64,000 nucleotides of DNA. Origin: a virus. Taxonomy: Duplodnaviria; Caudoviricetes. This document shows, piece by piece, positions 3,815 through 43,169 of the stretch; position 1 is the first letter of the stretch, and every line of letters begins with the position of its first letter. The position numbers and the translations under genes are program-made. The notes below the pieces were generated by a model that was not told the DNA's origin, made no database searches, and saw only the letters and a list, made by a program, of their open reading frames with translations. Location: the IMG/VR virus record IMGVR_UViG_3300022602_000027. The stretch is one strand, 5' to 3'.

Positions 3815-3826
3815 TTAAATTTCTCC

Positions 3827-4930: not shown

Positions 4931-4943
4931 GTGATTCTCCTTA

Positions 4944-26400: not shown

Positions 26401-26943
26401 GAGCCATTACCGCCAAGTCAATATGAATTAAACACATTACTATCACCTAATTTAAATCTAATTAAATCTATTAGTGATGAAATTGTTTACCATCCTGTGA
26501 ATTATACATTGTTGTTTGGCAATTTAGCTGATCCTAATTTCCAAGCAACATTTGAAGTTATGATTAATCCTAGTTCAGCAGTAAGTTCAGCAAATGTTAC
26601 TGCTCGAGTACTAACAGCAATTAATGAATTTTTTGCACTTGAAAACTGGGACTTTGGTGATACATTTTACTTTACAGAATTATCAACTTATGTAATGAAT
26701 CAACTAGCACCAGATATTATTACGTTTGTTATTGTTCCTGCACAAACAGGACAATACTTTGGTAGTCTATTTGAAATTAAATGTCCTAACAATAGTATAT
26801 TCTTAAGTTGCGCTACAACAGCAAATATACAAGTAGTATCAGGCTTAACTTCAACAAATCTTAAAACTGTAACAGGAACTGCGTTAGCGGCAACTGTAGC
26901 TAGCCAACAAATTACTAGCGCAAATTATGGGGCAAATAGTTAA
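23404..26943 (+). CDS. gp6: Baseplate wedge subunit, gp6-like
   Basis: DFQSYDFDNLRRTMIDY, ENFLELAERRDSVLRLARLISY, QNRMITGEDY. Confidence 0.85.
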   Translation: MSSTSRQNNLLLAEDWQKIYQSFRNADFQSYDFDNLRRTMIDYIRTNFPEDFNDYVESSEYLALIDLIAYVGQNIAFRADLNARENFLELAERRDSVLRLARLISYNASRNVAAQGLLKFTTVQTTENVLDSNGRDLAGQYISWNDSSNPNWYDQFIRILNAAFPQTQQFGNPADSATIYGTPTAQYRFNANNTDVPVYSFTKTVAGRGMDFEITSTTFTGETFIYEEPPKIANQIACIYKDDGYGAGSPGTGFFFNFTQGTLNTGTFNITNPSTNESIDIDTQNINNSDVWLYQLSQTSGLESTLWTNIPALTGNNVIYNSLNQSTSTVYAVTTRVGDAVSLNFADGVFGELPNGNFRVYYRISNGLTYTINPADIVNVSVAIPYTSALGTPETLTVSLSLASSVINATASETNASIKQNAPQTYYTQNRMITGEDYNISPLAANLQVAKVKTINRTSSGISRYFDLTDPTGKYSSTNLFADDGVLYQQEYTTGTTFSASGTQVDAAYVQGIIDNTVLPILEDPNLRNFFYSNFVTYTAASLNVSWYQVTKDSNSSSGYIGGTTSGTPFAVGSYTLTDLSFITSGALIKFTAPSYTDSVTGITYYYGYFNTKQNNAYVTFANPSLASAVPSNGVLYLWARVISVNGDGTASGTGTLSTGFGPIVLSKVIPKKAVISEVIPEFSTSLTASVQTSMIDLILSNSTFGLRYDASSTSWQIVFEQNLNTTTPFNLQYQGNNTNTQLDASWILLFSTDTLTYTITERTVRYIFESDAEVTFYFDDSVKIYDIVGSNTVTDTVKVLNINPQPDSVFPLTVDYPWQVVSEYIGQDGYIDPKKVVVTFADPTNSGVVDNPQQFIDIVSPSTNTAYKYIVEKKYEITSGQEDYKYVVNNPLTGPVIIFSTISASYPLSQWTTGQYFYFEDTQIVMQYVPSNTTSQLQPTLDYKVYVGRDGLRFQYVHSADYDSRIDPGASNIMDVYVLTYSYDTAFRQWAATGGSGTEPLPPSQYELNTLLSPNLNLIKSISDEIVYHPVNYTLLFGNLADPNFQATFEVMINPSSAVSSANVTARVLTAINEFFALENWDFGDTFYFTELSTYVMNQLAPDIITFVIVPAQTGQYFGSLFEIKCPNNSIFLSCATTANIQVVSGLTSTNLKTVTGTALAATVASQQITSANYGANS

Positions 26944-29900
26944 TGGCAACAAACGGCAACATCCCAATGGGTAACACCGGACTAGGTGTAAACTTTCTTC
27001 CAGACTTTTATCAAACTCCTGCGAATAAAAAATTCTTACAAGCAACTATTGATCAGTTATTTCAACCAGGTACGATAACTAAAACTAGTGGATTTATTGG
27101 AAGAGAAAACGCCAAAGCAGCCACTGGTGCTGATGTGTATATTCCAGCGGCTACTACATCTAGACAAAATTATCAATTAGAGCCTGGAATGGTAATTAAA
27201 GATTCATTAGGCAATGTAACATTTTTTAAAGACTATCAAGACTATATCAATCAGTTGACTGTATTTGGAGCTAACACTAGTAACCATGCAAGATTAAACA
27301 AACAAGAAATGTATTCTTGGGATCCGCATATTAACTGGGACAAATTTGTTAATTTCCAAGATTACTATTGGATGCCTTATGGCCCAGATGTTATTAAAAT
27401 TTATGGACAGCAACAAAATGCAGTCAGTACATATACTGTAGAAATTCAATCAGAGGGTAATGTTAACGAGTATTTGTTTACTCCTAACGGGTTTGATCTT
27501 AATCCTACAATAAAATTATATCGTGGACAAACTTATAATTTTAATATTACAAGCCCAGCAAATCCATTTAGTATTAAAACATCAAGAACTGCCGGAACTG
27601 GCGATCGCTATACTGTAGGTGTTAGTGATAATGCCGTTTTAACTGGCATCTTAACTTTTACCGTACCTATTGATGCACCTGATATTTTATACTATCAAAG
27701 TGAATCAGATTCATACTTAGGCGGTGCAATTGAAATTTATGATTACAAAGATAATTCTGCTATTGATGTTGAAAATGAAGTAATTGGAAAACAGTCTTAT
27801 AAATTAAACGATGGCACACAATTAAGCAACGGAATGAAAGTTTCCTTTGGAGGAAACGTTACACCTGCTAGTTACTCTAAAGGCAATTTTTATGTTGAAG
27901 GAGTAGGTGTTGCTATAAAATTAATACCTGAAACAATTTTAGAAATTGTTAGTCCTTATACTACAAATGAATCAATAGAATTTGACGCGACGGCATTTGA
28001 TACACAGCCGTTTGATGATGCTACAGGCTTTGCTACATTGCAAGATTATGTAGTTATTAATCGTGCCAGCCGAGATCATAACCCATGGAGTCGTTACAAT
28101 CGTTGGTTCCATAAGGATGTAATATCAGCGTCAGCTTTGTATAACAATGATTCAATTTCATTAGATCAAACAGCTCGAGCAACTAGACCAATTATTGAAT
28201 TCCAAGCAGATCTTAAATTGTTCAATATGGGAACAACGGCAATCATTGATATTGATTTAGTTGATGATTTTACTACTAACGTATTTTCAACTATTGAAGG
28301 ATCACGTGGTTATAATATTGACGGTGTTCCGTTAGTACACGGACAAAAAATAATATTCTTAGCAGATACCGATCCTCTTGTACAAAATAATATTTACGAA
28401 GTAGGAGTTGTTAACATCAACGGCTACAATCAAATAACATTAACACAAATTGCTTCTCCAACATTGAATGAATCAGCGTTAGTTTTACAAGGGGCAAAAA
28501 ATCAAAGTTTAATGTACTGGTATAACGGTAGCAACTGGGTTAAAGGACAACAAAAAACATCAACTAATCAAGCACCGCTATTTGATATAGTAGATGACAA
28601 TGGTGTAAGTTATGGAGATACTTCTGTATACACCGGATCTACTTTTACAGGTACTAAATTATTTTCTTATGCAGTTGGTACCGGTGTCAATGATGTTGTA
28701 TTAGGATTTCCATTAAGCTATCAAAACGTTGCTAATATTGGAGATATAGTATTTCAGTTTGATTTAGCAACTGATACTTTTGATTACAAATTAAGTTCTC
28801 AGCTAATGACTAGTAAAGTAGCGGCTGGATACTTAGTTAGTTCTGACTACGCAGGAAATCCTGTATATGTAAACGGCTGGCAAATTTGTAATACTACAAC
28901 ATTACAAGCCGCTGTAAGAATCTATAAAAATTCTGGATTAACAAATAATTTTAATATTGACATTTATGATGATGTTAATAATCTTAGTGATTTAACTGTA
29001 AAAATTTATGTAAATGGAATTAGATTAGATTCAACTTTGTGGACATTAGTAAAAGGTACCGCCTATTATACCGTAGTCTTAAACACATCTATTAAAACAA
29101 CAGATGTTTTAACAATTCGTTCTTTTGCTAGTCAGCCAGTTAACTCTAATGGGTATTACGAAATACCTACTAATTTACAAAACAATCCTTTAAATGCAGA
29201 TATTGGTACATTTACTTTAGGTGAAGTTACTGACCATGTGTCTAGTATAATTGATAATTTGCCTTCTAACGAATTTTTAGGAGTCTTTCCAGGCGATGGA
29301 AACTTAAGAGATTTAGGTAACATTACTCAATATGGTACAAAATTTGTACAACACAGCGGCCCTCTAAGTCTTGCAATGTATCATATTGCATCAGAAACAA
29401 ATAATATTATCAAGGCTCTAGAAACTGCTAGAGATGATTATAATAGCTTCAAACGAAATTTTATTGAAATTGCTAGCTCATTAGGTGTTGACGGTGATAC
29501 TGTTCAATTAATTGAATTAATTATGCAAAAAATTAATTCAAACAGACCTAATACTGCACCTTACTATTTTAGTGATATGGTTCCATACGGAGCAAATGTT
29601 TCTACTGATTTAACTGTTGTTGATTATAGAATAAAAACATATCCATTGTCTAACGCATTTTCTTTAGATACATTATCTAATAAAGCAGTTGGCGTTTATT
29701 TAAATGGATCTCAATTGGTATATCAAAGAGATTATACATTTAATAGTCAAGGATTTATAGAAATATCTAGTAGCGTAGCAATGAATAACGGAGACACAAT
29801 TACCACAGTTGAATATGAATCAACTGACGGTTGTTTTGTTCCAGCAACTCCTACTAAATTAGGTTTATGGCCTGCATATATCCCACAGATTTATTTAGAT

Positions 29901-32900
29901 ACTACTTTACTTGATCCGATTGAAGTAATACAAGGACACGATGGCAGTATTATTGCCGCTTACGGTGACTACAGAGATGCATTAATATTAGAACTAGAAT
30001 TACGAATCTACAATAATATTAAAGTAAAATACGATTCAAATATTTTTGATGTAAACGACATCATTCCTGGATACAGCAGAACTAATGATTATTCTCTTGC
30101 AGAATTTAATCAAGTACTTGCACCTAATTTTTATCAGTGGGCTGGTTTAGTTGGAGTTGACTTTACTAAACCTTTAAGTTATGATCGTTCAAACACGTTT
30201 ACTTATAACTATTCAGGCGATTCTGCTCCAAATCAAGCCGCTACTCCCGGATTCTGGAGAGGCATATATCGTTGGATGTTAGATACAGATCGTCCACATC
30301 TATGTCCTTGGGAGATGTTAGGATTTAGTACTGAACCATCTTGGTGGACTTCTGTATACGGACCTGCTCCATATACCAGCGATAACTTAATTTTATGGAC
30401 AGATTTATCTACTGGAACTATAAGAGAACCTGGCGTTCCTGTTATTACTGTAGACAAATATGCTAGACCATTTTTGTTAAATTATTTGCCAGTTAACGAG
30501 AACGGTGATTTATTAAGTCCTATTCGTTCTGGATTAGCACAAGGTGTAATAACAGAAAGCACTGGAAACGATTTTGTATTTGGCGATGTAAGCCCGATAG
30601 AAGCCGCATGGAGACGTAGTAGTTACTATCCATTTGGTGTAATAATTTCTTCAATGTTATTGACTCCTGCAAAAACTTTTGGTTTATTGTTAGATAGATC
30701 AAGAGTCGTGCGTAACAAAGCTGGACAACTAGTTTATAAAGATACTAATCTACGTATTCAACCTTCGGATATTTTAATCCCAAGCATTTATTCTAGTACA
30801 ACTAGAGTGCAAACTGCTGGTATTGTAAATTATGTAGTTGATCTTATTTTAAATATTATTTTTAGTAACAATCAAAATTCTTACAATTCTTATCAGTCTG
30901 ATTTAAAATTAATTACTCCACAATTAAGTTACAGAGTTGGATCATTTACAAATCAAAATCAATTTAATTTGTTGCTTGAAAGTAAAACTCCGTCAGCAAC
31001 TGGTAGTGTGTTTATTCCAAAAGAAAGTTATCAAGTATTTTTAAATTCTTCAAACCCTACTAAAAAAATCACATACAGTGGTGTAGTTATTACAAAATTA
31101 TCTACAGGATTTGAAGTTAAAGGTTATAGCAAATCTCAACCTTACTTTAATTATTACAGTTATATTTCATCAGGAACTGCTATTAACATAGGCGGAATTT
31201 CTGAAAGCGTTGCAACCTGGACACAAGGACAACAATATATTGTTGGGCAAGTAGTACAATATGGAAATGCATATTATAGAACAACTGTTAAAAATGTAGC
31301 AGGCGTATCTTTTGACAAAACAATGTTTACTCAGTTGCCCAGCCTTCCAATAGTGGGCGGAGTTACTGCAATATTTAGAGACACATGGAATAAAAATACT
31401 TTAAATGTTGCTCCTTACGGAACACAATTTGCTACTGTACAAGAAGTTGTAGATTTCTTATTAGGATATGAACAATATTTAATTGACCAAGGATTCGTAT
31501 TTGATGACTTCAATGGAAATTTAAATGCAGTTACCAACTGGTCAACTAGTGCAAAAGAATTTATGTTCTGGACTACACAAAATTGGGCCGGTGGACAAAC
31601 ACTATGGACTGATTGGTTACCAAACCAACTGTATAGTTACGGAACTATAGTTCGATACAATGGCGAATACTACAGTGCTCAGTATAATATTCCTGAGTTA
31701 GATACATTTGATACTACACAATGGATAGCATTGCCTGGATTAAGCAATGTAGGCAGTAGTGTAATTAGTTTGAGTCCGTCTGCAAATAAAATTACTTTTA
31801 CAACTGACTTAACAGTAGTTGATAATATCAGTAATCCGTTTAACAAATACGAAATATTTAAAGTAGACAGCACACCTTTACAACCAAGTGAGTTAGATAG
31901 TTATAGAGAAAACAATGTTGTAAGTTATAGTCCTCGAGGAACTGCTGGAATTTACTGTGCTAGTTTTTACTTAATACAAAATGAACATGTAGTAATTATA
32001 GACAATACAGATATTTTCAACGATGTTATATATAATCCACCAAGCGGATATCGCAGAGAGCGTATTAAAGTTTCAGGTTATGTAACTGAAGGATGGTACG
32101 GCGGATTAGATATTCCTGGATTTATATATGATGGTGCTAAAGTACAAAATTGGCAACCATGGCAAGATTATAACATGGCTGATATTATTTCCTATCAAGG
32201 AAATTATTATAGCGCCAATAAATTTATAGCAGGTGCGTCAGTGTTTAACTCTGTGGAATGGTTAAGATTAAAAAATCAACCAACTGCACAGCTATTACCT
32301 AACTGGACAAATACTGCTACACAATTTATAGATTTTTACGGCCTTGACATTGATAATTTTAATATTCAGCAACAGCAGTTTGCTCAACACTTAATTGGTT
32401 ATCAAACACGTCAATACTTAGACAATATTATTCAAGACCCAGTTAGCGAATTTAAATTCTTCCAAGGAATGATTCGTGATAAAGGTACACAGAATGTATT
32501 GAATCATTTGTTTAATGTATTGAGCAATGACGGAACAGAAAGTCTAACTTTCTATGAAGAGTGGGCTATCCGTGTTGGACAATATGGTGCGGCAAAAGCG
32601 TTTGAAAATTTTGAAGTTGTTATTGATCAAAATGAATATAAAAATAATCCTCAAGGATATTATCTAACTACTAGAAAAAATAATAAAGTTAGTACTGTTA
32701 TTAATCAATTAACTCCTAATGAAATTTATGTTAAACCTTTAGGGTATGATAATCAACCATTCCCTGTATTAGAAAATCCTGATCCAGTCTTGCGTAGTGC
32801 AGGATATGTAAACCCTATTGATGTGACATTTAAACTAGGATATATTTCAGATATACTTAATTATGATGTATCTTTATTAGGTAATGGTCAATATGTTTGG

Positions 32901-35900
32901 ACTGCATTTAGCGAAAACACATGGAATATCTACAGATTTACAGATTTGCAAATCCGTGTACTTAATGTAAGTTACTCAACTGACACTAAAACATTAACTT
33001 TGACTACACAAAATCTAATAGTTCTAAAAGCTGGAGATTATATTGGATTAGATCAAGTAGCAAGTATTAAAGGATTTTATAAAGTAGCAAGTGTTTCTTT
33101 AAATTCATTTACAGTAGTAACACCAACTGCAATAACAATTCCGTCTCCATTTACAAATACAAGTGAAGTAGTCGTTTATGTATTAACTACTCAACGCACT
33201 AGTTCTATGGATACATTAGACAAGTTATTGTTATCACATTTAAAACCTAAAACTTTAATATGGACAGATGATGACGGTAGCGGAAAGTGGGCAGTATGGC
33301 AATACAATTCTGTTTATGCCACACAAAATATTCCAAATGCAACACCGTCTACTAACTTTAATTTTGGTTCTAGTTTGTCAATTAACACACAAGGGTCTAT
33401 ATTAGCAGTTAGCAATAGTCAAGGCACGGTATCTATTTTTGATAAAGTGGGTCGTTCAGTTAAATGGGAAGCAAGAGGACATTTGTTAGAGCCTTTTATA
33501 TCAAAGAACGGCATAGTAAATGCTGATCAAGTTGCTACAGTAACCGCAATAAGTGCGGATGGAACATGGTTAGTAACTGGTAGTCCTAATGCTGGCTATG
33601 CAAGAACAAATTATAAAGGCGTTTACAATTCTAGCTCAACATACGCTATTAATAGTGTTGTGGCTGTACAAAATTCTACAAATAATTATTCTTACTATCA
33701 AGCATACCGAGCAGTTCCTATTAACACTCCAACAACTAATACTACTTACTGGTATGCAGTACCTTATGTTGATGTAAATCAAGTACAAGGATCTGATTCA
33801 AGTTTAGCAAATCAAGGTGTAATTAGCATCTACTTAAAAGATTTAGATAACAATTATAATTTAGTTGATACTATTATAAGTCCTTTGCCAAGCGCAAATG
33901 AACAATTTGGATCTAGTCTTATTTTTGGTAACAATACCTTGTATGTTGGTGCTGTGGGTTATAATAATGGCGCAGGTCGAGTATACAAATTATCATACTC
34001 TAGTACAGTGCGTGTTGAAACACAATACAATCCTGTAGGCAGTATTAACAGTACACTAGCAGTTACATCAACTAACGGAATTCGAGTTGGAATGATTGTT
34101 AGCGGTGTTGGGTTTACTAGCGGACAAACAGTGGATGCGGTGTTAAGTGAGACTACATTAGAACTAAGTGGAACACCTGACACTGGAGTTATACCTTCAG
34201 GTATGCTTCAATTTATAACAAATAGTTGGGCATATGACTGGACAGAAAATTATGTTGGTACTGGTACAAATGCATTAGGATCTAATTTATCAATAAGTTC
34301 AGATGCTAGCACACTTGCTATTACTGCCGTTGGCACTGCTCACATTTATAAAAATACTGGTAATGGTTTAGAAGAAATACAAGTATTAACTGGAAGCGAT
34401 GCATATTTTGGAAAAGCTATTGCAATATCACCGGACGGCACATACATTGCCGCATCTGACGACACATCAGGTAATGTAAGCCAACAAGGTAATGTTACAG
34501 TTTATCAATATAGCAATGGTACATACACTTCGTCACAAACTTTAGTTAATCATCAACCTGAAACAAACGGTTTGTTTGGTAATAAGATAGCGTTTATGGA
34601 TGATACTACTATTGTCGTTTATAGTAAAAATGGCGATAGCACTATTACAACTACATTTGATAATGATACTACTACATTTGATAAGAGCTCTACTAATTTC
34701 TTAACAGTAGAAGTTAATAGTGGGCGTGTAGATATATATGACAAATATCACAATGTTTGGGTATTCAGTGAAAGTTTAGAATCAGAAAATCTTCCTAGCG
34801 ATGGTTACGGAACAGGATTTGCAGTAGGTGCTAACCAAGTAATTGTTAGCGCACCTAATGCATCTGATCAAAGTCTTGCATCAGGACAAGTTTATAGTTA
34901 TGGAAAACAGAATGACACATATTCTTGGTCAATCTATGAACAGCAAGATGTAGTACCTGATGTTAATAAAATTAGAAAAGCATTCTTGTATGATCAAACA
35001 TTAGGAAAACTAGTAACATATCTTGATATTGTTGATCCTCTACAAGGAAAGATTCCAGGACCTGCACAAGAAGAAATTACATATCAAACATTCTATGATC
35101 CAGCAAGTTACTCGTACAGCGACGGCACTGCTGGTGTTGTTCTAAATACAAATGAATTCTGGGCAGATATACCTGTTGGACAATTATGGTGGGATTTAAG
35201 AACTACCAAGTTCTTAGAAAATAATTTTAATGATCCATCTTATAGAAACAGTGCTTGGAATACACTAGCAGAAGGCGCAAGCGTTGATATTTACGAATGG
35301 GTTTCAACTAACTTATTGCCATCTAATTGGGATAATTTAGCAGACACTCCGTCAGGAATTGCTATCGGTATCAGCGGAACAAGTTTATATGGTAATTCAG
35401 CTTACAGCGTAACACAAGTATACGATAACATTAGTAAAACATTTAGAAATACATATTATTTCTGGGTTAAAAATAGAAAAATAGTTCCAGCATCAACTAG
35501 CGGTAGAAACATGGCCGCAAATGATGTTTCACTATTAATTGCTAATCCACGAGCACAAGGTTATACATGTTTAGCGATTACAGGAGTTGATACATTTAGT
35601 TTAGTAAATGCCGCTGGATATTTAAAAGGTACTGAAGTTATTCTTGCTATTGAATACTGGGTAATCGATAAAACAGATCAAAATGTTCACAGCCAATGGA
35701 AATTAATCAGTAATGATACACTTGTTAACCTTCCAGCTGTTATTGAACAAAAATGGTTTGATAGTTTATGCGGTATTGACGAAGGCGGTCGTTCAGTGCC
35801 AGATCCAACTTTACCTATTAAATTACGTTACGGTATTGAAAATCGTCCTCGCCAGAGTATGTTTGTGAACCGTATTGAGGCATTAAAAGAATTTATTGAA

Positions 35901-38900
35901 AGTGTTAATACAACATTAAGCACATATCAAACTACAGAATTGAAAGATATTAGTTCTTTAGAATCTTATGATCCTATCCCTAATCCAATATATGGATTAT
36001 ATGATAAGATTGTTGATACTTATGAAGAATTAGGATTTGCAAGTATTGGTTATTTCTCAGTACCGGTACTAACACCAATTATTACTAATGGTAGCATTAC
36101 TGGAATTACGGTAATTAATTCAGGCAAAGGATATGTTTATGCTCCTTACGTTACTATTATTGGATCAGGTGAAGGTGCAGTAGTACGTACAACAATCAAT
36201 GCGTTAGGTGAAATTACAGGTGCAACTATTATCAATGGCGGTACTGGATATAATAGCGGTACACAATGCTCAGTTCGTAGTTACTCTGTGCTAGTAAACA
36301 GTGACAGTACTTCATCTGACACATGGAGCATTTATTCTTATAATACCATTAGTAAACAATATTCTAAAGTATTAACACAAGGTTACGATGTTAGAAAATA
36401 TTGGTCTTATATGGACTGGTATGAAACAGGATTCAGTCAGTTTAGTGCTCCTGATATTACTGTTAACAATTTTGTTGATTTGAATACTACACAAGATATA
36501 TTCTTTAATCAAGCACGAAATAACACTATTGGTAATGGACAATTAGTTAAAGTATTAAATGGAAATGCAAACAAGTGGGTATTGTTGTATAGATACTCTT
36601 CAGTTGTTTCTGTAGACTGGACACAAAGCTATCGCGTAGTAGGAATTCAAGACGGAACAATTCAATTTAATACTAACTTGTATGAGTTTGCAGGAACTGA
36701 TATTGGTTACGACTCTAGCATTTTTAATACATCAAACTTTGACGTTCAAGCTAGTGCTGAATTACGAATTATACTTAACACTATAAAAAATAATATTTTA
36801 ATAAACGATCTAAAACAAAATTATTTAGATTTATTCTTAAACGGTTTAAGATATGCGCACAGCGAACAGCCGTTTATTGACTGGGCGTTCAAAACTAGTT
36901 TTGTCCGTGCTACTCATAATGTTGGACAATTATCCCAACCAGTTAACTATCCTGTTGATAATTTAAGTAATTTCCAAGATTATGTTGCAGAAGTTAAACC
37001 TTATAGAACTAAAATTAGAGAATATGTAAGTCAATATACTAGCATTGATACTAATCAATCAGCAGTAACAGACTTTGACTTACAACCTAATTATTCAAAT
37101 ACAAAAATTAAACCAGTTGAGACAACATTTATTAACAACAGTATTAGTGTTGTAGATCCAACAATACAAAATTATCCTTGGAAGTTTTGGTTAGACAATG
37201 TTGGTTTTAGCATTATTGAAATTAAAATCGTCAGTGGTGGTAGCGGCTATGCTAGTGCTCCAGTAGTAATTATTGATCAGCCAACTGGTGCAAATTCTGT
37301 TCCAGCTACGGCTAAAGCATTTATTACTAACGGAGTAGTTAATAGAATATTATTAACAAACATTGATACATACGGTCGTGCTGGTAGCGGATACCTAAGT
37401 GCGCCGAGCGTAACGCTTTATGGTGGATTAGATAAAGGCGGAGTAGCAGCCAAAGCAGTTGCAATTATTGGAAATAGCGTTGTACGTTCAACATCAACTG
37501 AGTTGCGTTTTGACCGTGTTAACCAAACTTATTACCTAGCAAACTTGCAACAAGTTGATTCATTTACTGGTACTGGTTCTAAACTACAGTATGTGTTAAC
37601 TTGGGCACCAGACATTCGTGCAGGAGAATCTAGTGTTACAGTTAACGGTATTCCTGTTTTAAGAGAATTGTATGCGTTGTCAGTAGTAAGCTCAACTGCA
37701 TCTGGATATACACAATATACAGGTAAAATTACGTTTGCCTCAGCTCCGGCAACTGGATCAACAATAGTTGTCAAATACAATAAAGCACCGTCAGTATTAA
37801 CAGCGGTCGATCGTATTCAATACTATTATAATCCAGCATCTGGACAGTTAGGAAAAGATTTAGGACAGTTAATGACTGGAGTTGATTACGGCGGTGTTGT
37901 AGTCAGCGGTTTAGGTTTTGATGTAGCCGGCGGATGGGGTTCTGCTCCGTACTTAACAGATGCATGGGATAGTAGACCTGCAACATTTAAAGATTATTCT
38001 GTACAAGTTACAGGTAATACTCACGTGTTTACGTTGCCATATACACCTGCTAATGGAACAGCGATCAACATTTATTTCTCAAGATTGATAACAACTTCTT
38101 ACGTATCCGACGGAGTTTCGTTGCAATATGCTTACGATTTATCTTTATTAGATGTATCCGTTAATGTTGTAACAGTTACTCAAACAACAGCAATTACCGC
38201 AACTTATGTTCCAAGTCAAATTGTTAACGGTATAACATTTATTAGTAGCGGCTATACATTAGTAGTATCGGATACTACTGGAATTGTTCCAGGAATGATT
38301 GTAAGTGGAACTGGTTTTTCTAGAAGACAAAAAGTTGTAAATGTAGTTAACTCAACAACATTAACTATTGATAACGTAGCAGATACTGCTCCGAGCGGAT
38401 TAATAACATTCTCTAACTTAGCAGGCGGATTTGTTTTAACTGTGTCTGATACTACTGGATTAGCAGTTGGCGATGTTGTGACAGCCTCAACTGCTCACGG
38501 AACAATTTTTGCATACGGTACTACTGTGACAGCAGTTAATTCTTCAACGTCTGTTACTTTAAATCAAGTACTTTATTCAACAATAACTCCAGGAACAAAT
38601 ATAAACTTTACTAAAAATTTAGTAGAACCAACAGACGTAGTTATTAATGCATCTGGAACTATTCAATTATTAGAAGCATACGCTTCTGGAAGTACAATTA
38701 ATATTATTGGACAAAAACCACCAGTAAGATTAGACGATCCTTATTATGGAATGTCCGCCACACAAAACTGGGCTACTGGCACTGTGTATGCAGTTAATGA
38801 TCTTGTTCTTTACAATAGTATTTCTTATATTTGTAAGACTGCACACACTGCCGCTTCTTCATGGAGTATAGATTTTGCTCAAGGATATTGGAAATTAATT

Positions 38901-41900
38901 AACACTAATGCTATTATTCCTACTCCGGTTATTGGCGTTAGTGTAATTACAAACGTAGTTGAAGGTGGCGCTGGTGGCGCAACATTGACAATTTCATCAT
39001 ATAGTGGAGTAGACGACGGGGGTTCAGCATCAACGGTTGAATCATCAATTATTGATGGAGGAATTATTGATGACTCTCCAACTAATGTAATTGAAATCCC
39101 TGCAACATTTACAGTATTACCAGGAGATGAATTTATTTTAAGAGAATCTACTAGCGACGGTTCTATTTCAACCCCTGATGCAAATTACGATACATCAATG
39201 GATGGCGGAAATTTAACTTATTCAACTGCTACAGGTATTGCCGCAGATGACATAGTTGTTGATGGAGATGGATTTGTAACCCCAACTTCAAGTCCAGCAC
39301 CGGAAGAAGTTGTTCCAGGACAAGTTGTTGATGCATTATCTATTAAAGTTTATGATAAATCACAAGCAGGTTCTGCCGCTATAAAAGTAAACTCACAGAT
39401 TACAGACGGTATTACTAATACATACAGCATTGGGCAAACTCCTAATAGTCCTCGAGCATTAATTGTAAAATTAGGTAATAATATTCAAACGTACGGAACC
39501 GACTACTCAATAGATTATACAAACGGAACAGTAACATTTACTCCGTCTGGAAATAGTATTCTTTCAACAGGACAGTTGGTAACAATTTTTAGTGTTGGAT
39601 TCAACGGTACTAATATTTTAGATTTAGATTATTTTGTTGGTGACGGTGTTACAACAGAATTTATAACTCGAGCACCATGGATTACTCCTGTTACTAGTTT
39701 AATATATGTTGACGGAATTTCAACTCCTGCAAATTTATTTAAAACTGATAGTACATACACATTTACTAATGCTATTGGAATTAGATTTATAACACCACCT
39801 GCTGTAGGAAAATTAATTAATTTTATTATTGTTAGCGGCAATCAACAAACATTTGCAACTACAAAAACTGAAAGAATTACCGCAACAGGCTCATCAACAT
39901 ATACTTTAACATATCCTATTGGAATAACTTTACCAAACGAAAGCAATATGATTGTAAGAGTTAACCAACAAATATTAAGTGCTCCTGTTAATAATTATTT
40001 TACTATCGGTAATGATCAGTTAACTTATACATTAGATCCAAGTAAGGCACTTCCGTATTCTACAACAGTTGATAATGTTTTAGTTTATGCAGAAGGTAGT
40101 ACATTAACTTTTGGATCAGATTATACTGTTGACCCAGCTGGTATTTCAGTAACAATTAACCAAAACATATACGCAGAATACGAAGGTAAATCATTAATTG
40201 TTAGTATCATTACAAATGAAGGTTACACATACAATCCAATCAGCAGTCAGATTACATTTGCGCAAGGATCTGTTCCTTCAAACGGCGATGTTGTTGAAAT
40301 AATTAGTAACTACTTGCAAGATATTTTAGATATAGAACGCACAGAAGTACAGTATTCATCTACATTTACTTTAACACCTGGAACAATTGAATTCTTCAAA
40401 TACAATGCTCTTGGTGGCGGATTAATTCAATTAGACAGACCTGTAATTAATGCCGACTATGTTTGGGTAATTAAAAATAAAACTTTATTAAGTTCTGGTA
40501 CTGATTATAAACTTAATGAAGATTTACAAAGTTTACGTTTAGCAAAACCTTTAAGAAGCTCAGATGTTTTAGAGTTAATAACTTTTGGTAGCAACATTTT
40601 ACCTTCAGCTGGTATTTCATATATGCAGTTTAAGGATATGCTAAACAGAGTAAGATATATTCGATTAAATGCAAATAAGCAAACTACACTAGTGCAAGAT
40701 TTAAAATGGAATGACACACAAATTGTAGTAAATGATGCAAGTCAACTTGATCAACCAAATGCAGCCGCAAACAGACCGGGTGTAATTGAAATACGTGGCG
40801 AGCGCATTGAATATTTTAATGTTAACGGAAATGTTTTAAGTCAATTACGTCGAGGTACATTAGGAACAGGAGTTTACAATTTAAATAAATCTGGATCATA
40901 CGTACAAGGAATTGGTGCAAGTGAATATATTCCTTACACCGATACTACAGTAACTGAAACAGTTAAATCGTCAGGACAAGGAGTTCCGCGAACAACTGGA
41001 ACAGTATTGTCTACAACATCAAGCGTTGCAGAACCAATTGCCAACTTTGGTATAACAACTACATCTGGACAACTATCTGTATCGACTGGACAATATTATG
41101 TAGGTCAAGTGATTACTATAAGTGGTCAACCTGTACACAGTACACTCAATGGTGTAGTTTCTTTAGGCACTAATGGACAATTTAGTTGTTTGCCAACAAC
41201 TGTTACATTAGCATCTGGACAATCTGTAATTATTAACAATTCAACGGCTAATGCTCCAATTATTGGTCTAGCAATTACAGGAACATCAGGTCAATTTAGT
41301 TGTTCTTCAAGTCCAGTGCCATTAGTAGTAGGACAGCAAGTAACTTTAATAGGCTTAGTTACTGTTTCTCGATTCTTGTCTGGAGTTACCATTAACAACA
41401 CAAGTGGATTGTTCCAATGTACATATTCAAATACATTATTACAAGTGGGACAAACTGTAACTGTTACTGGAACATTTGGCGGTGGTGGCGGAATCTTAGG
41501 GTACACAAGTGGTACAACTTATACTATTAGTGCAACTGATGGACATAGCAATTTCACCTTAATTACATCACCTACAACATTTACAGCAGTTTCTGCTACT
41601 AATATTATTGGTACAGGATCAGGCGCAGTGTTCAATGTGTATGCGGCAAATAGAGGATATAAAGTTACGATAGCATCAGCTGGTACAGGCTATGCTGTTG
41701 GCAACACTATGAAAATTTTAGGTGGCGCATTAGGTGGCACTAATGTAACTAATGATTTGCTTATTTCAGTTGCTGGAGTATCTAATGGCACTATTACAGC
41801 TATTTCTGTTAGCGGTGTTTCAAATTACGGTGATCCGTTGATCACAACCTCCGGAGTTCCAACAGGAGTTACTTGGCAACTAGTGGCAGGATCTGGAAGT

Positions 41901-43121
41901 ATTCAAAATTATGTTTCTCCAGAAACATATAAAATATCAGCAACTAATGGGTCATCTACATTTACATTAACAACTCTTGATAATCAACCTTTGGTTACTA
42001 CAGTTGGTACTCCTGCGGATGGTATAGTAATAGATACTGGATTAAATGTATCGTTGAATCCTGGATCAATTACTGGATATGTTGGAAATCAACAAAGATA
42101 TTACATTATTGCTACTAATGGTTCAACACAATTTACATTATCTGCAACTTACAACGGTAGCGCAGTTACAACTACATTGGGTTCAATGTATGGACAGCAA
42201 TACTCTGTTAGTGCCGCAACTATAAACAACTATTCTAATCCAAAGAATTATTATGTTGTTGCTACAAATGGAACATCTACGATGACATTGTCTGAAACGC
42301 TTGGAGGACCTCCTGTTACAACTACAATTGGTACACCAAGTGGATTAATAGCCAGTGTGCCTAACAGTATAATAACAGTAAGTGATAATAGCGGTTTAGT
42401 TGCATTACAAAAATTTGTAGTTACAGGTGCAGGTGGTGGTGGATTAACTGCTGGAACTTATTACATAGTTAATCCGTCAGTTGGTACTAATCAAATCACT
42501 TTAGCTACATCATTATCTTTAGCAGAAGCCGGTAAACCAATTGGCACACTAACTACTGCTACATTATCAAACACATCGTTTACATCGGGTGGGCAAGATA
42601 TTAGTATTGGATTTGTGCCAGCAAACGCTGATCAAATTGAAGTGTTTGTTGGAGGTTACGATAATGTATCATGGTCCCCAGACACTGCGTATAAGGTAGG
42701 AACTATTGTGTCAGTGGGCGCATATACTTATAGATGTTCAACTGCACACACAAGTTCATCATCGTTTGGTAATGATTTGTCTAACTGGTATTTCTTTGTA
42801 GAAAATATTCGATTAAGAAAATCAGCATACAGTGTGTTTAACATTAACAAAGCACCATATAGCCCTGCCGGCGATGTAAATTTTGCCGAAGACTTTATTG
42901 TCGACGGAACAACTTCGATTATAACTTTAACAAATCCGCTGTCCCTTGGCACACAAGTAACAGTAGTTAAGAGATCAGGAATAGCATGGGACGGTAACAA
43001 ATCCGGAACAACAGTTAATCAAACAGTTGCGCCATCAGTTAATATCTTAAATGATAGTTCCGCTATTGCTAACTTTATCAGAGCAGAACTTGGAATTTGG
43101 TACACGGACTACAAGAGTTAA
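26943..43121 (+). CDS. Giant (5392 aa) baseplate wedge/receptor-binding structural protein
   Basis: Uninterrupted 16.2-kb ORF coupled to gp6 (TAATG), in the T4 gp7 position; carbohydrate-binding-like repeats, propeller-like repeats and nested beta-domains. Confidence 0.8.
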   Translation: MATNGNIPMGNTGLGVNFLPDFYQTPANKKFLQATIDQLFQPGTITKTSGFIGRENAKAATGADVYIPAATTSRQNYQLEPGMVIKDSLGNVTFFKDYQDYINQLTVFGANTSNHARLNKQEMYSWDPHINWDKFVNFQDYYWMPYGPDVIKIYGQQQNAVSTYTVEIQSEGNVNEYLFTPNGFDLNPTIKLYRGQTYNFNITSPANPFSIKTSRTAGTGDRYTVGVSDNAVLTGILTFTVPIDAPDILYYQSESDSYLGGAIEIYDYKDNSAIDVENEVIGKQSYKLNDGTQLSNGMKVSFGGNVTPASYSKGNFYVEGVGVAIKLIPETILEIVSPYTTNESIEFDATAFDTQPFDDATGFATLQDYVVINRASRDHNPWSRYNRWFHKDVISASALYNNDSISLDQTARATRPIIEFQADLKLFNMGTTAIIDIDLVDDFTTNVFSTIEGSRGYNIDGVPLVHGQKIIFLADTDPLVQNNIYEVGVVNINGYNQITLTQIASPTLNESALVLQGAKNQSLMYWYNGSNWVKGQQKTSTNQAPLFDIVDDNGVSYGDTSVYTGSTFTGTKLFSYAVGTGVNDVVLGFPLSYQNVANIGDIVFQFDLATDTFDYKLSSQLMTSKVAAGYLVSSDYAGNPVYVNGWQICNTTTLQAAVRIYKNSGLTNNFNIDIYDDVNNLSDLTVKIYVNGIRLDSTLWTLVKGTAYYTVVLNTSIKTTDVLTIRSFASQPVNSNGYYEIPTNLQNNPLNADIGTFTLGEVTDHVSSIIDNLPSNEFLGVFPGDGNLRDLGNITQYGTKFVQHSGPLSLAMYHIASETNNIIKALETARDDYNSFKRNFIEIASSLGVDGDTVQLIELIMQKINSNRPNTAPYYFSDMVPYGANVSTDLTVVDYRIKTYPLSNAFSLDTLSNKAVGVYLNGSQLVYQRDYTFNSQGFIEISSSVAMNNGDTITTVEYESTDGCFVPATPTKLGLWPAYIPQIYLDTTLLDPIEVIQGHDGSIIAAYGDYRDALILELELRIYNNIKVKYDSNIFDVNDIIPGYSRTNDYSLAEFNQVLAPNFYQWAGLVGVDFTKPLSYDRSNTFTYNYSGDSAPNQAATPGFWRGIYRWMLDTDRPHLCPWEMLGFSTEPSWWTSVYGPAPYTSDNLILWTDLSTGTIREPGVPVITVDKYARPFLLNYLPVNENGDLLSPIRSGLAQGVITESTGNDFVFGDVSPIEAAWRRSSYYPFGVIISSMLLTPAKTFGLLLDRSRVVRNKAGQLVYKDTNLRIQPSDILIPSIYSSTTRVQTAGIVNYVVDLILNIIFSNNQNSYNSYQSDLKLITPQLSYRVGSFTNQNQFNLLLESKTPSATGSVFIPKESYQVFLNSSNPTKKITYSGVVITKLSTGFEVKGYSKSQPYFNYYSYISSGTAINIGGISESVATWTQGQQYIVGQVVQYGNAYYRTTVKNVAGVSFDKTMFTQLPSLPIVGGVTAIFRDTWNKNTLNVAPYGTQFATVQEVVDFLLGYEQYLIDQGFVFDDFNGNLNAVTNWSTSAKEFMFWTTQNWAGGQTLWTDWLPNQLYSYGTIVRYNGEYYSAQYNIPELDTFDTTQWIALPGLSNVGSSVISLSPSANKITFTTDLTVVDNISNPFNKYEIFKVDSTPLQPSELDSYRENNVVSYSPRGTAGIYCASFYLIQNEHVVIIDNTDIFNDVIYNPPSGYRRERIKVSGYVTEGWYGGLDIPGFIYDGAKVQNWQPWQDYNMADIISYQGNYYSANKFIAGASVFNSVEWLRLKNQPTAQLLPNWTNTATQFIDFYGLDIDNFNIQQQQFAQHLIGYQTRQYLDNIIQDPVSEFKFFQGMIRDKGTQNVLNHLFNVLSNDGTESLTFYEEWAIRVGQYGAAKAFENFEVVIDQNEYKNNPQGYYLTTRKNNKVSTVINQLTPNEIYVKPLGYDNQPFPVLENPDPVLRSAGYVNPIDVTFKLGYISDILNYDVSLLGNGQYVWTAFSENTWNIYRFTDLQIRVLNVSYSTDTKTLTLTTQNLIVLKAGDYIGLDQVASIKGFYKVASVSLNSFTVVTPTAITIPSPFTNTSEVVVYVLTTQRTSSMDTLDKLLLSHLKPKTLIWTDDDGSGKWAVWQYNSVYATQNIPNATPSTNFNFGSSLSINTQGSILAVSNSQGTVSIFDKVGRSVKWEARGHLLEPFISKNGIVNADQVATVTAISADGTWLVTGSPNAGYARTNYKGVYNSSSTYAINSVVAVQNSTNNYSYYQAYRAVPINTPTTNTTYWYAVPYVDVNQVQGSDSSLANQGVISIYLKDLDNNYNLVDTIISPLPSANEQFGSSLIFGNNTLYVGAVGYNNGAGRVYKLSYSSTVRVETQYNPVGSINSTLAVTSTNGIRVGMIVSGVGFTSGQTVDAVLSETTLELSGTPDTGVIPSGMLQFITNSWAYDWTENYVGTGTNALGSNLSISSDASTLAITAVGTAHIYKNTGNGLEEIQVLTGSDAYFGKAIAISPDGTYIAASDDTSGNVSQQGNVTVYQYSNGTYTSSQTLVNHQPETNGLFGNKIAFMDDTTIVVYSKNGDSTITTTFDNDTTTFDKSSTNFLTVEVNSGRVDIYDKYHNVWVFSESLESENLPSDGYGTGFAVGANQVIVSAPNASDQSLASGQVYSYGKQNDTYSWSIYEQQDVVPDVNKIRKAFLYDQTLGKLVTYLDIVDPLQGKIPGPAQEEITYQTFYDPASYSYSDGTAGVVLNTNEFWADIPVGQLWWDLRTTKFLENNFNDPSYRNSAWNTLAEGASVDIYEWVSTNLLPSNWDNLADTPSGIAIGISGTSLYGNSAYSVTQVYDNISKTFRNTYYFWVKNRKIVPASTSGRNMAANDVSLLIANPRAQGYTCLAITGVDTFSLVNAAGYLKGTEVILAIEYWVIDKTDQNVHSQWKLISNDTLVNLPAVIEQKWFDSLCGIDEGGRSVPDPTLPIKLRYGIENRPRQSMFVNRIEALKEFIESVNTTLSTYQTTELKDISSLESYDPIPNPIYGLYDKIVDTYEELGFASIGYFSVPVLTPIITNGSITGITVINSGKGYVYAPYVTIIGSGEGAVVRTTINALGEITGATIINGGTGYNSGTQCSVRSYSVLVNSDSTSSDTWSIYSYNTISKQYSKVLTQGYDVRKYWSYMDWYETGFSQFSAPDITVNNFVDLNTTQDIFFNQARNNTIGNGQLVKVLNGNANKWVLLYRYSSVVSVDWTQSYRVVGIQDGTIQFNTNLYEFAGTDIGYDSSIFNTSNFDVQASAELRIILNTIKNNILINDLKQNYLDLFLNGLRYAHSEQPFIDWAFKTSFVRATHNVGQLSQPVNYPVDNLSNFQDYVAEVKPYRTKIREYVSQYTSIDTNQSAVTDFDLQPNYSNTKIKPVETTFINNSISVVDPTIQNYPWKFWLDNVGFSIIEIKIVSGGSGYASAPVVIIDQPTGANSVPATAKAFITNGVVNRILLTNIDTYGRAGSGYLSAPSVTLYGGLDKGGVAAKAVAIIGNSVVRSTSTELRFDRVNQTYYLANLQQVDSFTGTGSKLQYVLTWAPDIRAGESSVTVNGIPVLRELYALSVVSSTASGYTQYTGKITFASAPATGSTIVVKYNKAPSVLTAVDRIQYYYNPASGQLGKDLGQLMTGVDYGGVVVSGLGFDVAGGWGSAPYLTDAWDSRPATFKDYSVQVTGNTHVFTLPYTPANGTAINIYFSRLITTSYVSDGVSLQYAYDLSLLDVSVNVVTVTQTTAITATYVPSQIVNGITFISSGYTLVVSDTTGIVPGMIVSGTGFSRRQKVVNVVNSTTLTIDNVADTAPSGLITFSNLAGGFVLTVSDTTGLAVGDVVTASTAHGTIFAYGTTVTAVNSSTSVTLNQVLYSTITPGTNINFTKNLVEPTDVVINASGTIQLLEAYASGSTINIIGQKPPVRLDDPYYGMSATQNWATGTVYAVNDLVLYNSISYICKTAHTAASSWSIDFAQGYWKLINTNAIIPTPVIGVSVITNVVEGGAGGATLTISSYSGVDDGGSASTVESSIIDGGIIDDSPTNVIEIPATFTVLPGDEFILRESTSDGSISTPDANYDTSMDGGNLTYSTATGIAADDIVVDGDGFVTPTSSPAPEEVVPGQVVDALSIKVYDKSQAGSAAIKVNSQITDGITNTYSIGQTPNSPRALIVKLGNNIQTYGTDYSIDYTNGTVTFTPSGNSILSTGQLVTIFSVGFNGTNILDLDYFVGDGVTTEFITRAPWITPVTSLIYVDGISTPANLFKTDSTYTFTNAIGIRFITPPAVGKLINFIIVSGNQQTFATTKTERITATGSSTYTLTYPIGITLPNESNMIVRVNQQILSAPVNNYFTIGNDQLTYTLDPSKALPYSTTVDNVLVYAEGSTLTFGSDYTVDPAGISVTINQNIYAEYEGKSLIVSIITNEGYTYNPISSQITFAQGSVPSNGDVVEIISNYLQDILDIERTEVQYSSTFTLTPGTIEFFKYNALGGGLIQLDRPVINADYVWVIKNKTLLSSGTDYKLNEDLQSLRLAKPLRSSDVLELITFGSNILPSAGISYMQFKDMLNRVRYIRLNANKQTTLVQDLKWNDTQIVVNDASQLDQPNAAANRPGVIEIRGERIEYFNVNGNVLSQLRRGTLGTGVYNLNKSGSYVQGIGASEYIPYTDTTVTETVKSSGQGVPRTTGTVLSTTSSVAEPIANFGITTTSGQLSVSTGQYYVGQVITISGQPVHSTLNGVVSLGTNGQFSCLPTTVTLASGQSVIINNSTANAPIIGLAITGTSGQFSCSSSPVPLVVGQQVTLIGLVTVSRFLSGVTINNTSGLFQCTYSNTLLQVGQTVTVTGTFGGGGGILGYTSGTTYTISATDGHSNFTLITSPTTFTAVSATNIIGTGSGAVFNVYAANRGYKVTIASAGTGYAVGNTMKILGGALGGTNVTNDLLISVAGVSNGTITAISVSGVSNYGDPLITTSGVPTGVTWQLVAGSGSIQNYVSPETYKISATNGSSTFTLTTLDNQPLVTTVGTPADGIVIDTGLNVSLNPGSITGYVGNQQRYYIIATNGSTQFTLSATYNGSAVTTTLGSMYGQQYSVSAATINNYSNPKNYYVVATNGTSTMTLSETLGGPPVTTTIGTPSGLIASVPNSIITVSDNSGLVALQKFVVTGAGGGGLTAGTYYIVNPSVGTNQITLATSLSLAEAGKPIGTLTTATLSNTSFTSGGQDISIGFVPANADQIEVFVGGYDNVSWSPDTAYKVGTIVSVGAYTYRCSTAHTSSSSFGNDLSNWYFFVENIRLRKSAYSVFNINKAPYSPAGDVNFAEDFIVDGTTSIITLTNPLSLGTQVTVVKRSGIAWDGNKSGTTVNQTVAPSVNILNDSSAIANFIRAELGIWYTDYKS

Positions 43122-43131
43122 AATAGCACAT

Positions 43132-43149
43132 TATAAATATTGATAAATA
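43132..43149 (+). promoter_or_regulatory. Tandem late promoters TATAAATA / GATAAATA
   Basis: 43132-39 exact consensus; 43142-49 variant. Confidence 0.7.
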
Positions 43150-43169
43150 TAACATAAAGAGAGATTAGT

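What the first reader, a model, noticed from the sequence alone, without database searches (positions are those of the whole stretch)
41046..42345. Matryoshka-style nested domain repeats in the giant baseplate protein
Seen: four N-half repeats (xTxGQFSC..L.VGQ.VT(I)xG at ~41046, ~41154, ~41268, ~41385) come first. The four C-half repeats (GSI.NY..P..Y.I.ATNG...FTL...P.TTT.GTP) follow at ~41480, ~41886, ~42060 and ~42210. Only the innermost unit is contiguous, and it carries a further insert (~41568-41830). The order A1 A2 A3 (A4 B4) B3 B2 B1 indicates repeated insertion of a domain into the same loop of its own copy, not tandem duplication. Inference: recursive domain insertion builds an extendable adhesin stalk.
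Basis: partly seen in the sequence, partly recalled or inferred. Interest (0 to 1): 0.62.

Follow-up and report, generated by a model that had tools for sequence, protein, structure and literature searches.

The report
Self-nested barrel domains in phage baseplate protein
Near the end of a 5,392-residue baseplate protein of an uncultured freshwater giant phage, four copies of one small unnamed beta-barrel domain sit one inside the next like Russian dolls, and related phage proteins carry the same domain nested from one to at least six deep.

Summary
Residues 4702-5142 of the giant ORF (26943-43121, +) hold exactly four N-halves (A) followed by four C-halves (B). An ~83-residue foreign domain is inserted in the innermost B.

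The nested reading is supported.
- In about 220 other proteins, A and B normally occur as one contiguous ~85-residue AB unit (308 units).
- 195-204 of 219 proteins spell balanced-bracket words: AB, AABB, A(AB)(AB)B, A3B3, A4B4, A5B5 and a six-deep word.
- Proteins with homologous flanks differ in depth because they carry matched extra A and B pieces.
- AlphaFold2 on the two inner layers of an orthologue gave mean pLDDT 86.7 and pTM 0.68.
- Structure search matched the same small barrel fold (EF-Tu domain 2 type) to the contiguous inner unit and, separately, to the split outer A3+B3.

The domain has no Pfam or PDB sequence match. The principle itself is published: recursive insertion of homologous domains in the Si3 region of cyanobacterial RNA polymerase.

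The role as an out-and-back stalk carrying a variable tip is inference, and "adhesin" is untested. Layers 1 and 2 of this window rest on homology, not on a model. Other notes of this scan report the same kind of architecture on other phage DNA.

The parts
26943..43121 (+). Giant baseplate-module protein (5392 aa) that carries the nest near its C-terminus
   Evidence: ORF list and translation. It follows the gp5-like hub, gp25-like and gp6-like wedge genes. Its N-terminal part hits phrog_677 and phrog_10938. Five orthologues of 5323-5428 aa were found.
41046..41159 (+). A1: N-half of the outermost domain (aa 4702-4739)
   Evidence: A profile, 44 bits and 26 bits with the family-wide profile. 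Pairing with B1 is inferred from the bracket rule.
41160..41273 (+). A2: N-half of layer 2 (aa 4740-4777)
   Evidence: A profile, 48 bits. Pairing with B2 is inferred.
41274..41390 (+). A3: N-half of layer 3 (aa 4778-4816)
   Evidence: A profile, 52 bits. In the orthologue's model this segment has pLDDT 76-91 and forms the outer barrel together with B3.
41391..41492 (+). A4: N-half of the innermost domain, ending in the Gly-rich A/B loop (aa 4817-4850)
   Evidence: A profile, 34 bits. Contiguous with B4. In the orthologue's model the inner barrel spans residues 40-129.
41493..41579 (+). B4, first part (aa 4851-4879)
   Evidence: B profile hit 4849-4900 and orthologue alignment.
41580..41828 (+). 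Foreign ~83-aa domain inserted in a second loop of the innermost domain (aa ~4880-4962)
   Evidence: Present in P0001-3 and absent in P0004-6. It belongs to a separate family, with hits to query positions ~190-295 in P0019, P0024, P0034, P0046 and P0094. No Pfam family matches; homologues give only a sub-threshold Gp18_dom_I hit.
41829..41891 (+). B4, last part (aa 4963-4983)
   Evidence: Aligns with the uninterrupted B4 of P0004-6. B profile positions 31-52.
41892..42059 (+). B3: C-half of layer 3 (aa 4984-5039)
   Evidence: B profile, 66 bits. In the orthologue's model pLDDT is 81-94 up to the last strand.
42060..42212 (+). B2: C-half of layer 2 (aa 5040-5090)
   Evidence: B profile, 68 bits.
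42213..42368 (+). B1: C-half of the outermost domain (aa 5091-5142)
   Evidence: B profile, 70 bits.
42369..42587 (+). Unit 5: contiguous remote homologue of the AB domain, in tandem after the nest (aa 5143-5215)
   Evidence: hhalign of AB against unit 5: 92% probability, E 6.6e-7, 59 columns. The same module occurs in a 579-aa tail-fibre protein, L002/P0007.

Best explanation
Residues 4702-5142 are four copies of one small beta-barrel domain of about 85-90 residues, here called AB. Each copy is inserted into the Gly-rich loop between the A half and the B half of the copy outside it: A1[A2[A3[A4-B4]B3]B2]B1.

The chain runs outward through the four A halves, turns in the innermost contiguous domain, and returns through the four B halves. 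The N- and C-ends of the whole nest therefore meet, and the nest is a side branch of the giant baseplate protein.

Each domain is tied to its host by two chain crossings. The A-to-A linker is predicted to be the first strand of the inner barrel.

The tip domain tolerates a further foreign domain in another loop. That domain is present in three orthologues and absent in three.

Inferred, not shown: the nest forms a fairly stiff projection from the baseplate whose length is set by the number of matched layers, and it presents a variable tip module towards the host surface.
For: Shown directly:
- Exactly 4 A + 4 B, with strong profile scores, in all six orthologues and nowhere else in the window.
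- A and B are halves of one domain: 308 contiguous AB units in other proteins, and 128 proteins whose word is simply AB.
- Bracket grammar: 195-204 of 219 proteins are balanced at 12-20 bit thresholds. Words include AABB x11, A(AB)(AB)B+AB x9, A3B3 x3, A4B4 x6, A5B5 and A6B5ABB. Most exceptions are truncated ORFs or weak partial hits.
- Pure A^mB^n words have m = n in 21 of 22 proteins. The one exception is a B split by the insert. All 9 independent flank families have m = n (rough p 2.5e-5).
- Flank-homologous proteins differ in depth (1, 3, 5, 6 in one cluster; 1, 2, 3 in another). The extra A and extra B flank a shared inner AB.

Predicted:
- AF2 of the orthologue's A3 A4 B4 B3 with a 48-row alignment: mean pLDDT 86.7, pTM 0.68, all five models 82.6-86.7.
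- VIA-align finds the same fold twice. EF-Tu domain 2 (5i4q_C) matches model residues 40-129 with Z 6.0. EF-Tu domain 2 (4iw3_B) matches 73 residues spread over 1-183 with Z 5.8. The 86-residue protein 7anu_B matches 66 residues over 1-185 at rmsd 2.4 A.
- An independent BFVD model of a homologue aligns over 180 columns, TMq 0.55.

Other support:
- Similarity among the A's mirrors that among the B's in the giant proteins (r 0.74-0.94) and in P0008 (r 0.63, 0.3% of permutations reach it).
- One relative (P0012) is a tail sheath protein with A4B4 inside it. This fits a module whose two ends meet.
Against: - No coordinates or contact map could be read. The outer-domain reading rests on first and last aligned residues and aligned lengths.
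- The model is of an orthologue (about 50% identical in this stretch) and covers only layers 3 and 4. Layers 1 and 2 of the window are assigned by homology and the bracket rule.
- A first AF2 run on the whole window region with a 2-row alignment failed (pLDDT 32).
- The last ~25 residues of the good model, which include the closing strand of B3, have pLDDT around 52-63.
- Structural Z-scores are only 5-6.
- The mirror-similarity test gave no signal in P0012, P0015 and P0033.
- A few words remain unexplained: P0039 has BBB after an unrelated N-terminus, and P0040, P0060 and P0087 carry orphan A's.
- Rod shape, stiffness and any binding function are inferred only.
Confidence: 0.85

Rival explanations
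1. Two independent tandem arrays. The four 38-residue A repeats form one structure (for example a beta-solenoid or fibre segment), the four ~50-residue B repeats form another, and the counts match by accident.
For: Read linearly, the sequence is AAAA then BBBB. Adjacent repeats are the most similar within each array, as tandem duplication would also give. A few database proteins show B-only runs (P0039, P0188, P0021).
Against: - A and B are fused as one unit in 308 cases.
- m = n in all 9 independent families.
- Branched balanced words such as A(AB)(AB)B cannot come from two arrays.
- B-only runs are mostly truncated ORFs.
- AF2 packs A3 with B3 into the same fold as A4B4.
Confidence: 0.04
2. 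Nested, but interdigitated. The layers exchange strands, as reported for parts of Si3 of cyanobacterial RNA polymerase, so the units are not clean A_i+B_i barrels and the whole is a compact intertwined body, not a rod.
For: The A-to-A linker is predicted as a beta strand that belongs to the inner barrel: model residues 39-43 fall inside the inner-domain matches. Strand exchange between recursively inserted domains is described for Si3 (PMC11515920). pTM 0.68 suggests a fixed contact between the two layers.
Against: Single-domain PDB barrels superpose on the inner and on the outer unit with equal Z and rmsd 2.4-3.1 A. This argues for two complete barrels.
Confidence: 0.1
3. Artefact of composition. 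The Thr/Ser/Gly-rich sequence gives spurious repeats and spurious profile hits.
For: The region is rich in T, S and G. BLAST with the low-complexity filter found nothing in the phage collection.
Against: Profile i-E values reach 1e-20. Invariant Gly, Tyr, Phe and Cys positions are conserved across hundreds of proteins. The predicted fold is confident.
Confidence: 0.01

Closest known systems
Si3 insertion of cyanobacterial RNA polymerase beta' (RpoC2): recursively inserted HABAS / sandwich-barrel hybrid motif domains
   Same: Homologous small beta domains are inserted into one another repeatedly. The result is a multi-level nest, six levels in Prochlorococcus rpoC2, with branching nodes, grown inside one loop of a large host protein (PMC13114784; PMC11515920).
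   Different: - Different fold family: the best structural matches here are EF-Tu domain 2-type barrels, and no hybrid-motif chain is among the rows shown.
- Different host: a phage virion protein, not a polymerase.
- Depth varies from 1 to at least 6 among close relatives, whereas Si3 is a lineage-fixed architecture.
- Here the halves obey a simple readable A/B grammar.
'Russian doll' domain organisation of contractile sheath proteins (T4 gp18, pyocin and diffocin sheaths)
   Same: Phage tail proteins in which surface domains are insertions within one another (PMC6088184). One relative here, P0012, is itself a sheath protein carrying an A4B4 nest.
   Different: The sheath domains I-IV have different folds and a fixed number. 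Here one domain family is host and guest at every level, and the depth is variable.
Small inserted beta-barrels of the EF-Tu domain 2 / FNR FAD-binding / UBA1 FCCH type, including barrels in phage tail proteins (phi92 endosialidase, lambda gpJ, phage Mystique tail tube)
   Same: Same general barrel arrangement by structure comparison: Z 5-6, 65-79 residues, rmsd 2.4-3.3 A. To my knowledge several of these are themselves insertion domains.
   Different: No sequence relationship was detected: there is no Pfam or PDB sequence hit. Z values are in the range where only a common arrangement may be shared.
Out-and-back stalks such as flagellin (D0-D1-D2-D3) and streptococcal antigen I/II (from my own knowledge, not tested here)
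   Same: The chain runs out and back, so both ends sit at the base and a variable module sits at the tip.
   Different: Those are built from different domains or from paired helices, not from one domain inserted into itself.

Membership tests
Recursive self-insertion architecture (as in Si3 of cyanobacterial RNAP beta') | Host and guest domains are homologous | tested here: met
   All A units match one profile and all B units match another. Contiguous AB units of the same family are widespread.
Recursive self-insertion architecture (as in Si3 of cyanobacterial RNAP beta') | The host domain is discontinuous and folds around the guest, which sits in one of its loops | tested here: met
   Met for layers 3/4 in the orthologue's AF2 model: the same fold is matched by residues 40-129 and by ~70 residues over 1-183. 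Layers 1/2 are inferred from the bracket rule. This is prediction, not experiment.
Recursive self-insertion architecture (as in Si3 of cyanobacterial RNAP beta') | More than one level of nesting | tested here: met
   Four levels in all six orthologues. Relatives have 2, 3, 4, 5 and 6 levels.
HABAS / sandwich-barrel hybrid motif domain family | Domain has the hybrid-motif fold or sequence | tested here: inconclusive
   No Pfam hit. The VIA rows shown are EF-Tu domain 2-type barrels and no hybrid-motif entry is listed, but absence from the list does not exclude it.
EF-Tu domain 2-like / FNR FAD-binding-like beta-barrel fold | Closed small barrel superposable on members over most of the domain | tested here: inconclusive
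   Z 5.1-6.1, 63-79 aligned residues, rmsd 2.4-3.4 A. Foldseek found nothing below E 0.04. Z under 8 may reflect only a common arrangement.
Ordinary tandem-repeat arrays (independent A array and B array) | Each repeat type occurs and multiplies independently of the other | tested here: not met
   m = n in 21 of 22 pure words and in 9 of 9 independent families. 195-204 of 219 words are balanced.
Russian-doll sheath insertion domains (gp18 domains I-IV) | Sequence membership in the sheath domain families | tested here: not met
   The nest region has no Pfam hit. Only homologues of the tip insert give sub-threshold Gp18_dom_I matches (21 bits against a cut-off of 27).
CBM5/12 carbohydrate-binding module | Pfam PF02839 match within the nest | tested here: not met
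   The PF02839 hits lie at aa ~3942-3975 and ~5244-5273, outside the nest.

The most novel reading that the evidence does not exclude
An unnamed beta-barrel domain family of phage virion proteins (baseplate, sheath, fibre and tailspike-like proteins) grows by inserting copies of itself into its own A/B loop. This gives out-and-back rods of 1 to at least 6, possibly 8, layers. Phages would change the length and branching of these rods by gaining or losing matched half-domains. That would be a general, evolvable way to tune the reach of tail appendages and to display variable tip modules, and no paper I found describes it.
Probability: 0.5. Interest if true: 0.7.

Novelty: new variant of a known kind. 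Interest (0 to 1): 0.6.

Why it matters
Recursive insertion of a domain into its own copy has so far been documented mainly for one case, the Si3 region of cyanobacterial RNA polymerase.

This work shows a second, unrelated domain family doing the same in phage particle proteins. The family is large: 513 proteins at E <= 1e-10 in one search. Nesting depth varies among close relatives, and the A/B grammar can be read from sequence alone.

This has three uses:
- It gives a natural series for studying how discontinuous domains fold, with depth 1 to at least 6.
- It shows how giant phage proteins grow.
- It warns annotators that 'AAAA BBBB' repeat patterns can be nests, not two tandem arrays.

For phage biology it points to a length-adjustable side arm on the baseplate with an exchangeable tip.

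Tried and rejected
- AF2 of the whole window region (aa 4690-5226) with a 2-row alignment gave pLDDT 32 and was unusable.
- Alignments with the window sequence as first row were dropped. In A5 the C-part of B4 was misaligned onto the start of the insert. In A4 unrelated flanks were laid over the outer layers. The insert-free orthologue was therefore modelled instead.
- tblastn of the region against 50,697 phage records found no match, with the low-complexity filter on.
- The one metagenome scan only returned the contig of P0006 again, so P0002-P0005 could not be cut by reference.
- Pfam and PDB sequence searches with the AB domain found nothing. Foldseek against PDB found nothing below E 0.04.
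- The mirror-phylogeny (Mantel) test is suggestive for the giant proteins and P0008 but gives no signal for P0012, P0015 and P0033. I do not lean on it.
- No whole genome is held for this window.
- I considered that the start of the insert (aa 4877-4900, 'IIGTGSGAVFNV') might be the true end of B4. I rejected this because the orthologues without the insert align to aa 4963-4983, and the G-T/S-G-A-x-F-x-V motif belongs to the insert's own family.

Full report
**What is there.** The window carries a myovirus-type baseplate module: a gp5-like hub/lysozyme, a gp25-like and a gp6-like wedge protein, and then tail-fibre genes. Between the gp6-like gene and the fibre genes lies one ORF of 5392 codons, 26943-43121 on the + strand. 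Its N-terminal part matches phage baseplate and virion families. The only Pfam domains above cut-off are two CBM5/12 modules, both outside the finding. The finding, nt 41046-42345, is aa 4702-5134. Earlier notes of this scan call the source an uncultured freshwater jumbo phage. No whole genome is held for it.

**Check of the observation.** Five orthologues of 5323-5428 aa exist and are 46-73% identical in this region. Aligning them and cutting out the units gives four A units of ~38 aa and four B units of ~50 aa.
- A consensus: I-T-G-T-(A/S)-G-Q-F-S-C ... L-x-V-G-Q-x-V-T-I-x-G.
- B consensus: G-S-I-T-G-Y-x-x-P-T-T-Y-Y-I-x-A-T-N-G-S-T-T-F-T-L-S ... T-T-x-G-T-P-T-G-L-T-Y-T.

Profiles of A and B hit exactly 4 + 4 places in each orthologue, with i-E from 1e-12 to 1e-23. 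Profiles rebuilt mostly from unrelated proteins find the same 4 + 4 and nothing else in six frames of the window.

The innermost B is interrupted at aa ~4880-4962. Three orthologues have this insert and three do not.

A fifth, contiguous unit follows at aa 5143-5215. It is too diverged for the A/B profiles but is a remote homologue by profile-profile comparison (92%, E 6.6e-7).

**Are A and B halves of one domain?** I searched 1.84 billion representative proteins with a profile of the region (272 hits at E <= 1e-3). I also searched the 5.8-billion-protein index with an AABB protein (513 hits at E <= 1e-10). I then scanned the 265 sequences held with the A and B profiles.
- In 128 proteins the word is simply AB, with A running directly into B. 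In all there are 308 such contiguous units.
- The junction is a Gly-rich loop (G-G-T-G-S).
- The ~85-residue AB unit has no Pfam match and no PDB sequence match.

**The bracket grammar.** Reading A as an opening bracket and B as a closing bracket, 195-204 of 219 proteins spell a balanced word at thresholds of 12-20 bits.
- Non-trivial balanced words include AABB (11 proteins), A(AB)(AB)B+AB (9), A(AB)(AB)(AB)B+AB (6), AAABBB (3), AAAABBBB (6), A5B5 (P0015) and AAAAAABBBBBABB (P0008, six deep, every unit >= 19 bits).
- P0009 has a solid run of eight B's and six solid plus two weak A's.
- The unbalanced words are mostly ORFs cut at a contig end or by a mis-called start, 12-19 bit partial hits, or a B split by the insert.
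- Among pure A^mB^n words, 21 of 22 have m = n. All nine independent flank families do, which is a rough probability of 2.5e-5 if the two counts were independent.

Two separate tandem arrays would not give this pattern. Branched words such as A(AB)(AB)B cannot arise from two arrays at all.

**Depth among relatives.** After masking the units, proteins with homologous flanks cluster together but differ in depth.
- One cluster holds AB (26 proteins), A3B3, A5B5 and the six-deep word.
- Another holds AB, AABB and A-x-AABB-x-B.

In the alignment of the second cluster, the extra A lies upstream and the extra B lies downstream of a shared inner AB. Layers therefore come as matched pairs. One relative with A4B4 (P0012) is a tail sheath protein (PF17482 at its C-terminus). 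This fits a module whose two ends meet and which can therefore sit in a loop of any host.

**Structure prediction.** The first AF2 job, on the window region with a 2-row alignment, failed (pLDDT 32). For the second and last job I modelled the two inner layers of orthologue P0006, which lacks the insert. The construct was L001:10244-10825, 194 aa: the tail of A2, then A3 A4 B4 B3, then the head of B2. The 48-row alignment had about 20 rows covering both layers, and I inspected it first.
- Result: mean pLDDT 86.7 and pTM 0.68, with all five models at 82.6-86.7.
- The split outer halves scored as high as the inner unit. Only the last ~25 residues were poor, where the alignment was off.

Coordinates are not returned, so I used the aligned ranges of an all-against-all structure comparison. 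The rows fall into two groups that hit the same fold, a small barrel of the EF-Tu domain 2 / FNR FAD-binding / UBA1 FCCH type.
- One group covers model residues 39/40-129/131 with 63-79 aligned residues. This is the contiguous inner unit.
- The other group covers 1-183 with only 68-79 aligned residues, so it skips about 100 residues. This is the outer unit made of A3 and B3.
- EF-Tu domain 2 appears in both groups: 5i4q_C with Z 6.0 on the inner unit, and 4iw3_B with Z 5.8 on the outer.
- The 86-residue protein 7anu_B aligns 66 residues over 1-185 at rmsd 2.4 A.

The inner range begins at the A3-to-A4 linker, which is predicted as a strand (residues 39-43). Residue 1 of the outer range is the equivalent A2-to-A3 linker. 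A BFVD model of an uncharacterised uncultured-phage protein aligns over 180 columns (E 2.7e-14, TMq 0.55). Foldseek found no PDB match below E 0.04.

**How it most likely works.**
- Shown by sequence statistics and supported by prediction: the topology A1[A2[A3[A4-B4]B3]B2]B1. Each copy sits in the A/B loop of the next, and the ends of the whole nest are adjacent.
- Inferred: a fairly stiff, double-tethered side arm on the baseplate protein. Its reach depends on the number of layers, and its tip (the innermost domain) can carry another module.
- The insert at the tip belongs to a separate widespread family with no Pfam name. Its presence or absence among orthologues fits an exchangeable tip.
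- 'Adhesin' is not tested. How a layer is added at the DNA level is not resolved.

**Weak or mixed evidence.** Similarity among the A's mirrors that among the B's in the giant proteins (r 0.74-0.94, only four units) and in P0008 (r 0.63; 0.3% of permutations reach it). It does not do so in P0012, P0015 or P0033. P0039 carries BBB after an unrelated Toprim-like N-terminus, and P0040, P0060 and P0087 carry an orphan A. These remain unexplained.

**Comparison with what is known.**
- Domains inserted in one another are well known in tail sheath proteins, where they are described as a 'Russian doll' arrangement of different folds (PMC6088184).
- Recursive insertion of homologous domains is published for the Si3 region of cyanobacterial RNA polymerase beta'. 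[quoted passage not shown]
- The present case works like Si3. It involves another fold and another kind of host protein, and its depth varies among relatives.
- I found no paper describing this domain family or its nesting. My literature searches were limited.
- Other notes of this scan report the same kind of architecture in other jumbo-phage and cyanophage baseplate proteins, and they name the same precedent. They are unchecked AI notes and are not counted as evidence here.

**Verdict.** The nested-insertion reading is supported with about 0.85 confidence for the topology. The stalk and adhesin function is plausible but untested. This is a new variant of a known kind.

Noticed in passing
window 41580-41828 (aa ~4880-4962): The tip insert belongs to its own widespread domain family, with motif G-(T/S)-G-A-x-F-x-V ... 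G-x-G-Y-x-V-G-D-x-I-x-I-x-G-x-x-L-G-G. The family is repeated many times in large proteins such as P0019 and P0024. It has no Pfam match; some homologues give only a sub-threshold hit to Gp18_dom_I.
   Followed up: partly
window 42369-42587 (aa 5143-5215); L002:4285-6024: The contiguous unit after the nest is 59% identical to a module in a 579-aa tail-fibre protein of an unrelated viral contig (P0007). Small modules of this superfamily therefore seem to move between phage fibre proteins.
   Followed up: partly
window 43119-43169: The window's giant protein ends at '...WYTDYKS'. All five orthologues continue for ~25-35 residues with T-F-D repeats ending in F-D-Q-G. No remnant of this tail is seen in any frame after the stop.
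   Followed up: partly
P0012 (1438 aa): This is a phage tail sheath protein (PF17482 at 1329-1427) carrying an A4B4 nest at aa 251-591. It adds self-nested layers to the already nested sheath architecture.
   Followed up: partly
P0039 (477 aa): Three B halves with no A follow directly on a Toprim-like N-terminal region. The C-terminal flank is homologous to P0009 and P0022. This is either a chimeric assembly or a recombinant, and it is the one clear exception to the bracket rule.
   Followed up: no
P0040, P0060, P0087: These proteins have words with an orphan A (AAB, ABABAAB) at good scores. They could be intermediates of layer gain or loss, or their closing halves may be too diverged to detect.
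   Followed up: no
window 41046-42368 and family consensus: Both half-units begin with the same short motif: the A head is V-x-I-T-G-T and the B head is G-S-I-T-G-Y. This could offer microhomology for the rearrangements that add layers. This is speculation only.
   Followed up: no
window 38400-38600 (aa ~3822-3869): Contiguous ~50-aa 'V-G-M-x-V-S-G-x-G' modules elsewhere in the giant protein give a weak match to the MscS beta-domain (PF00924, E 0.0015). They may be distant relatives of the same barrel superfamily.
   Followed up: no
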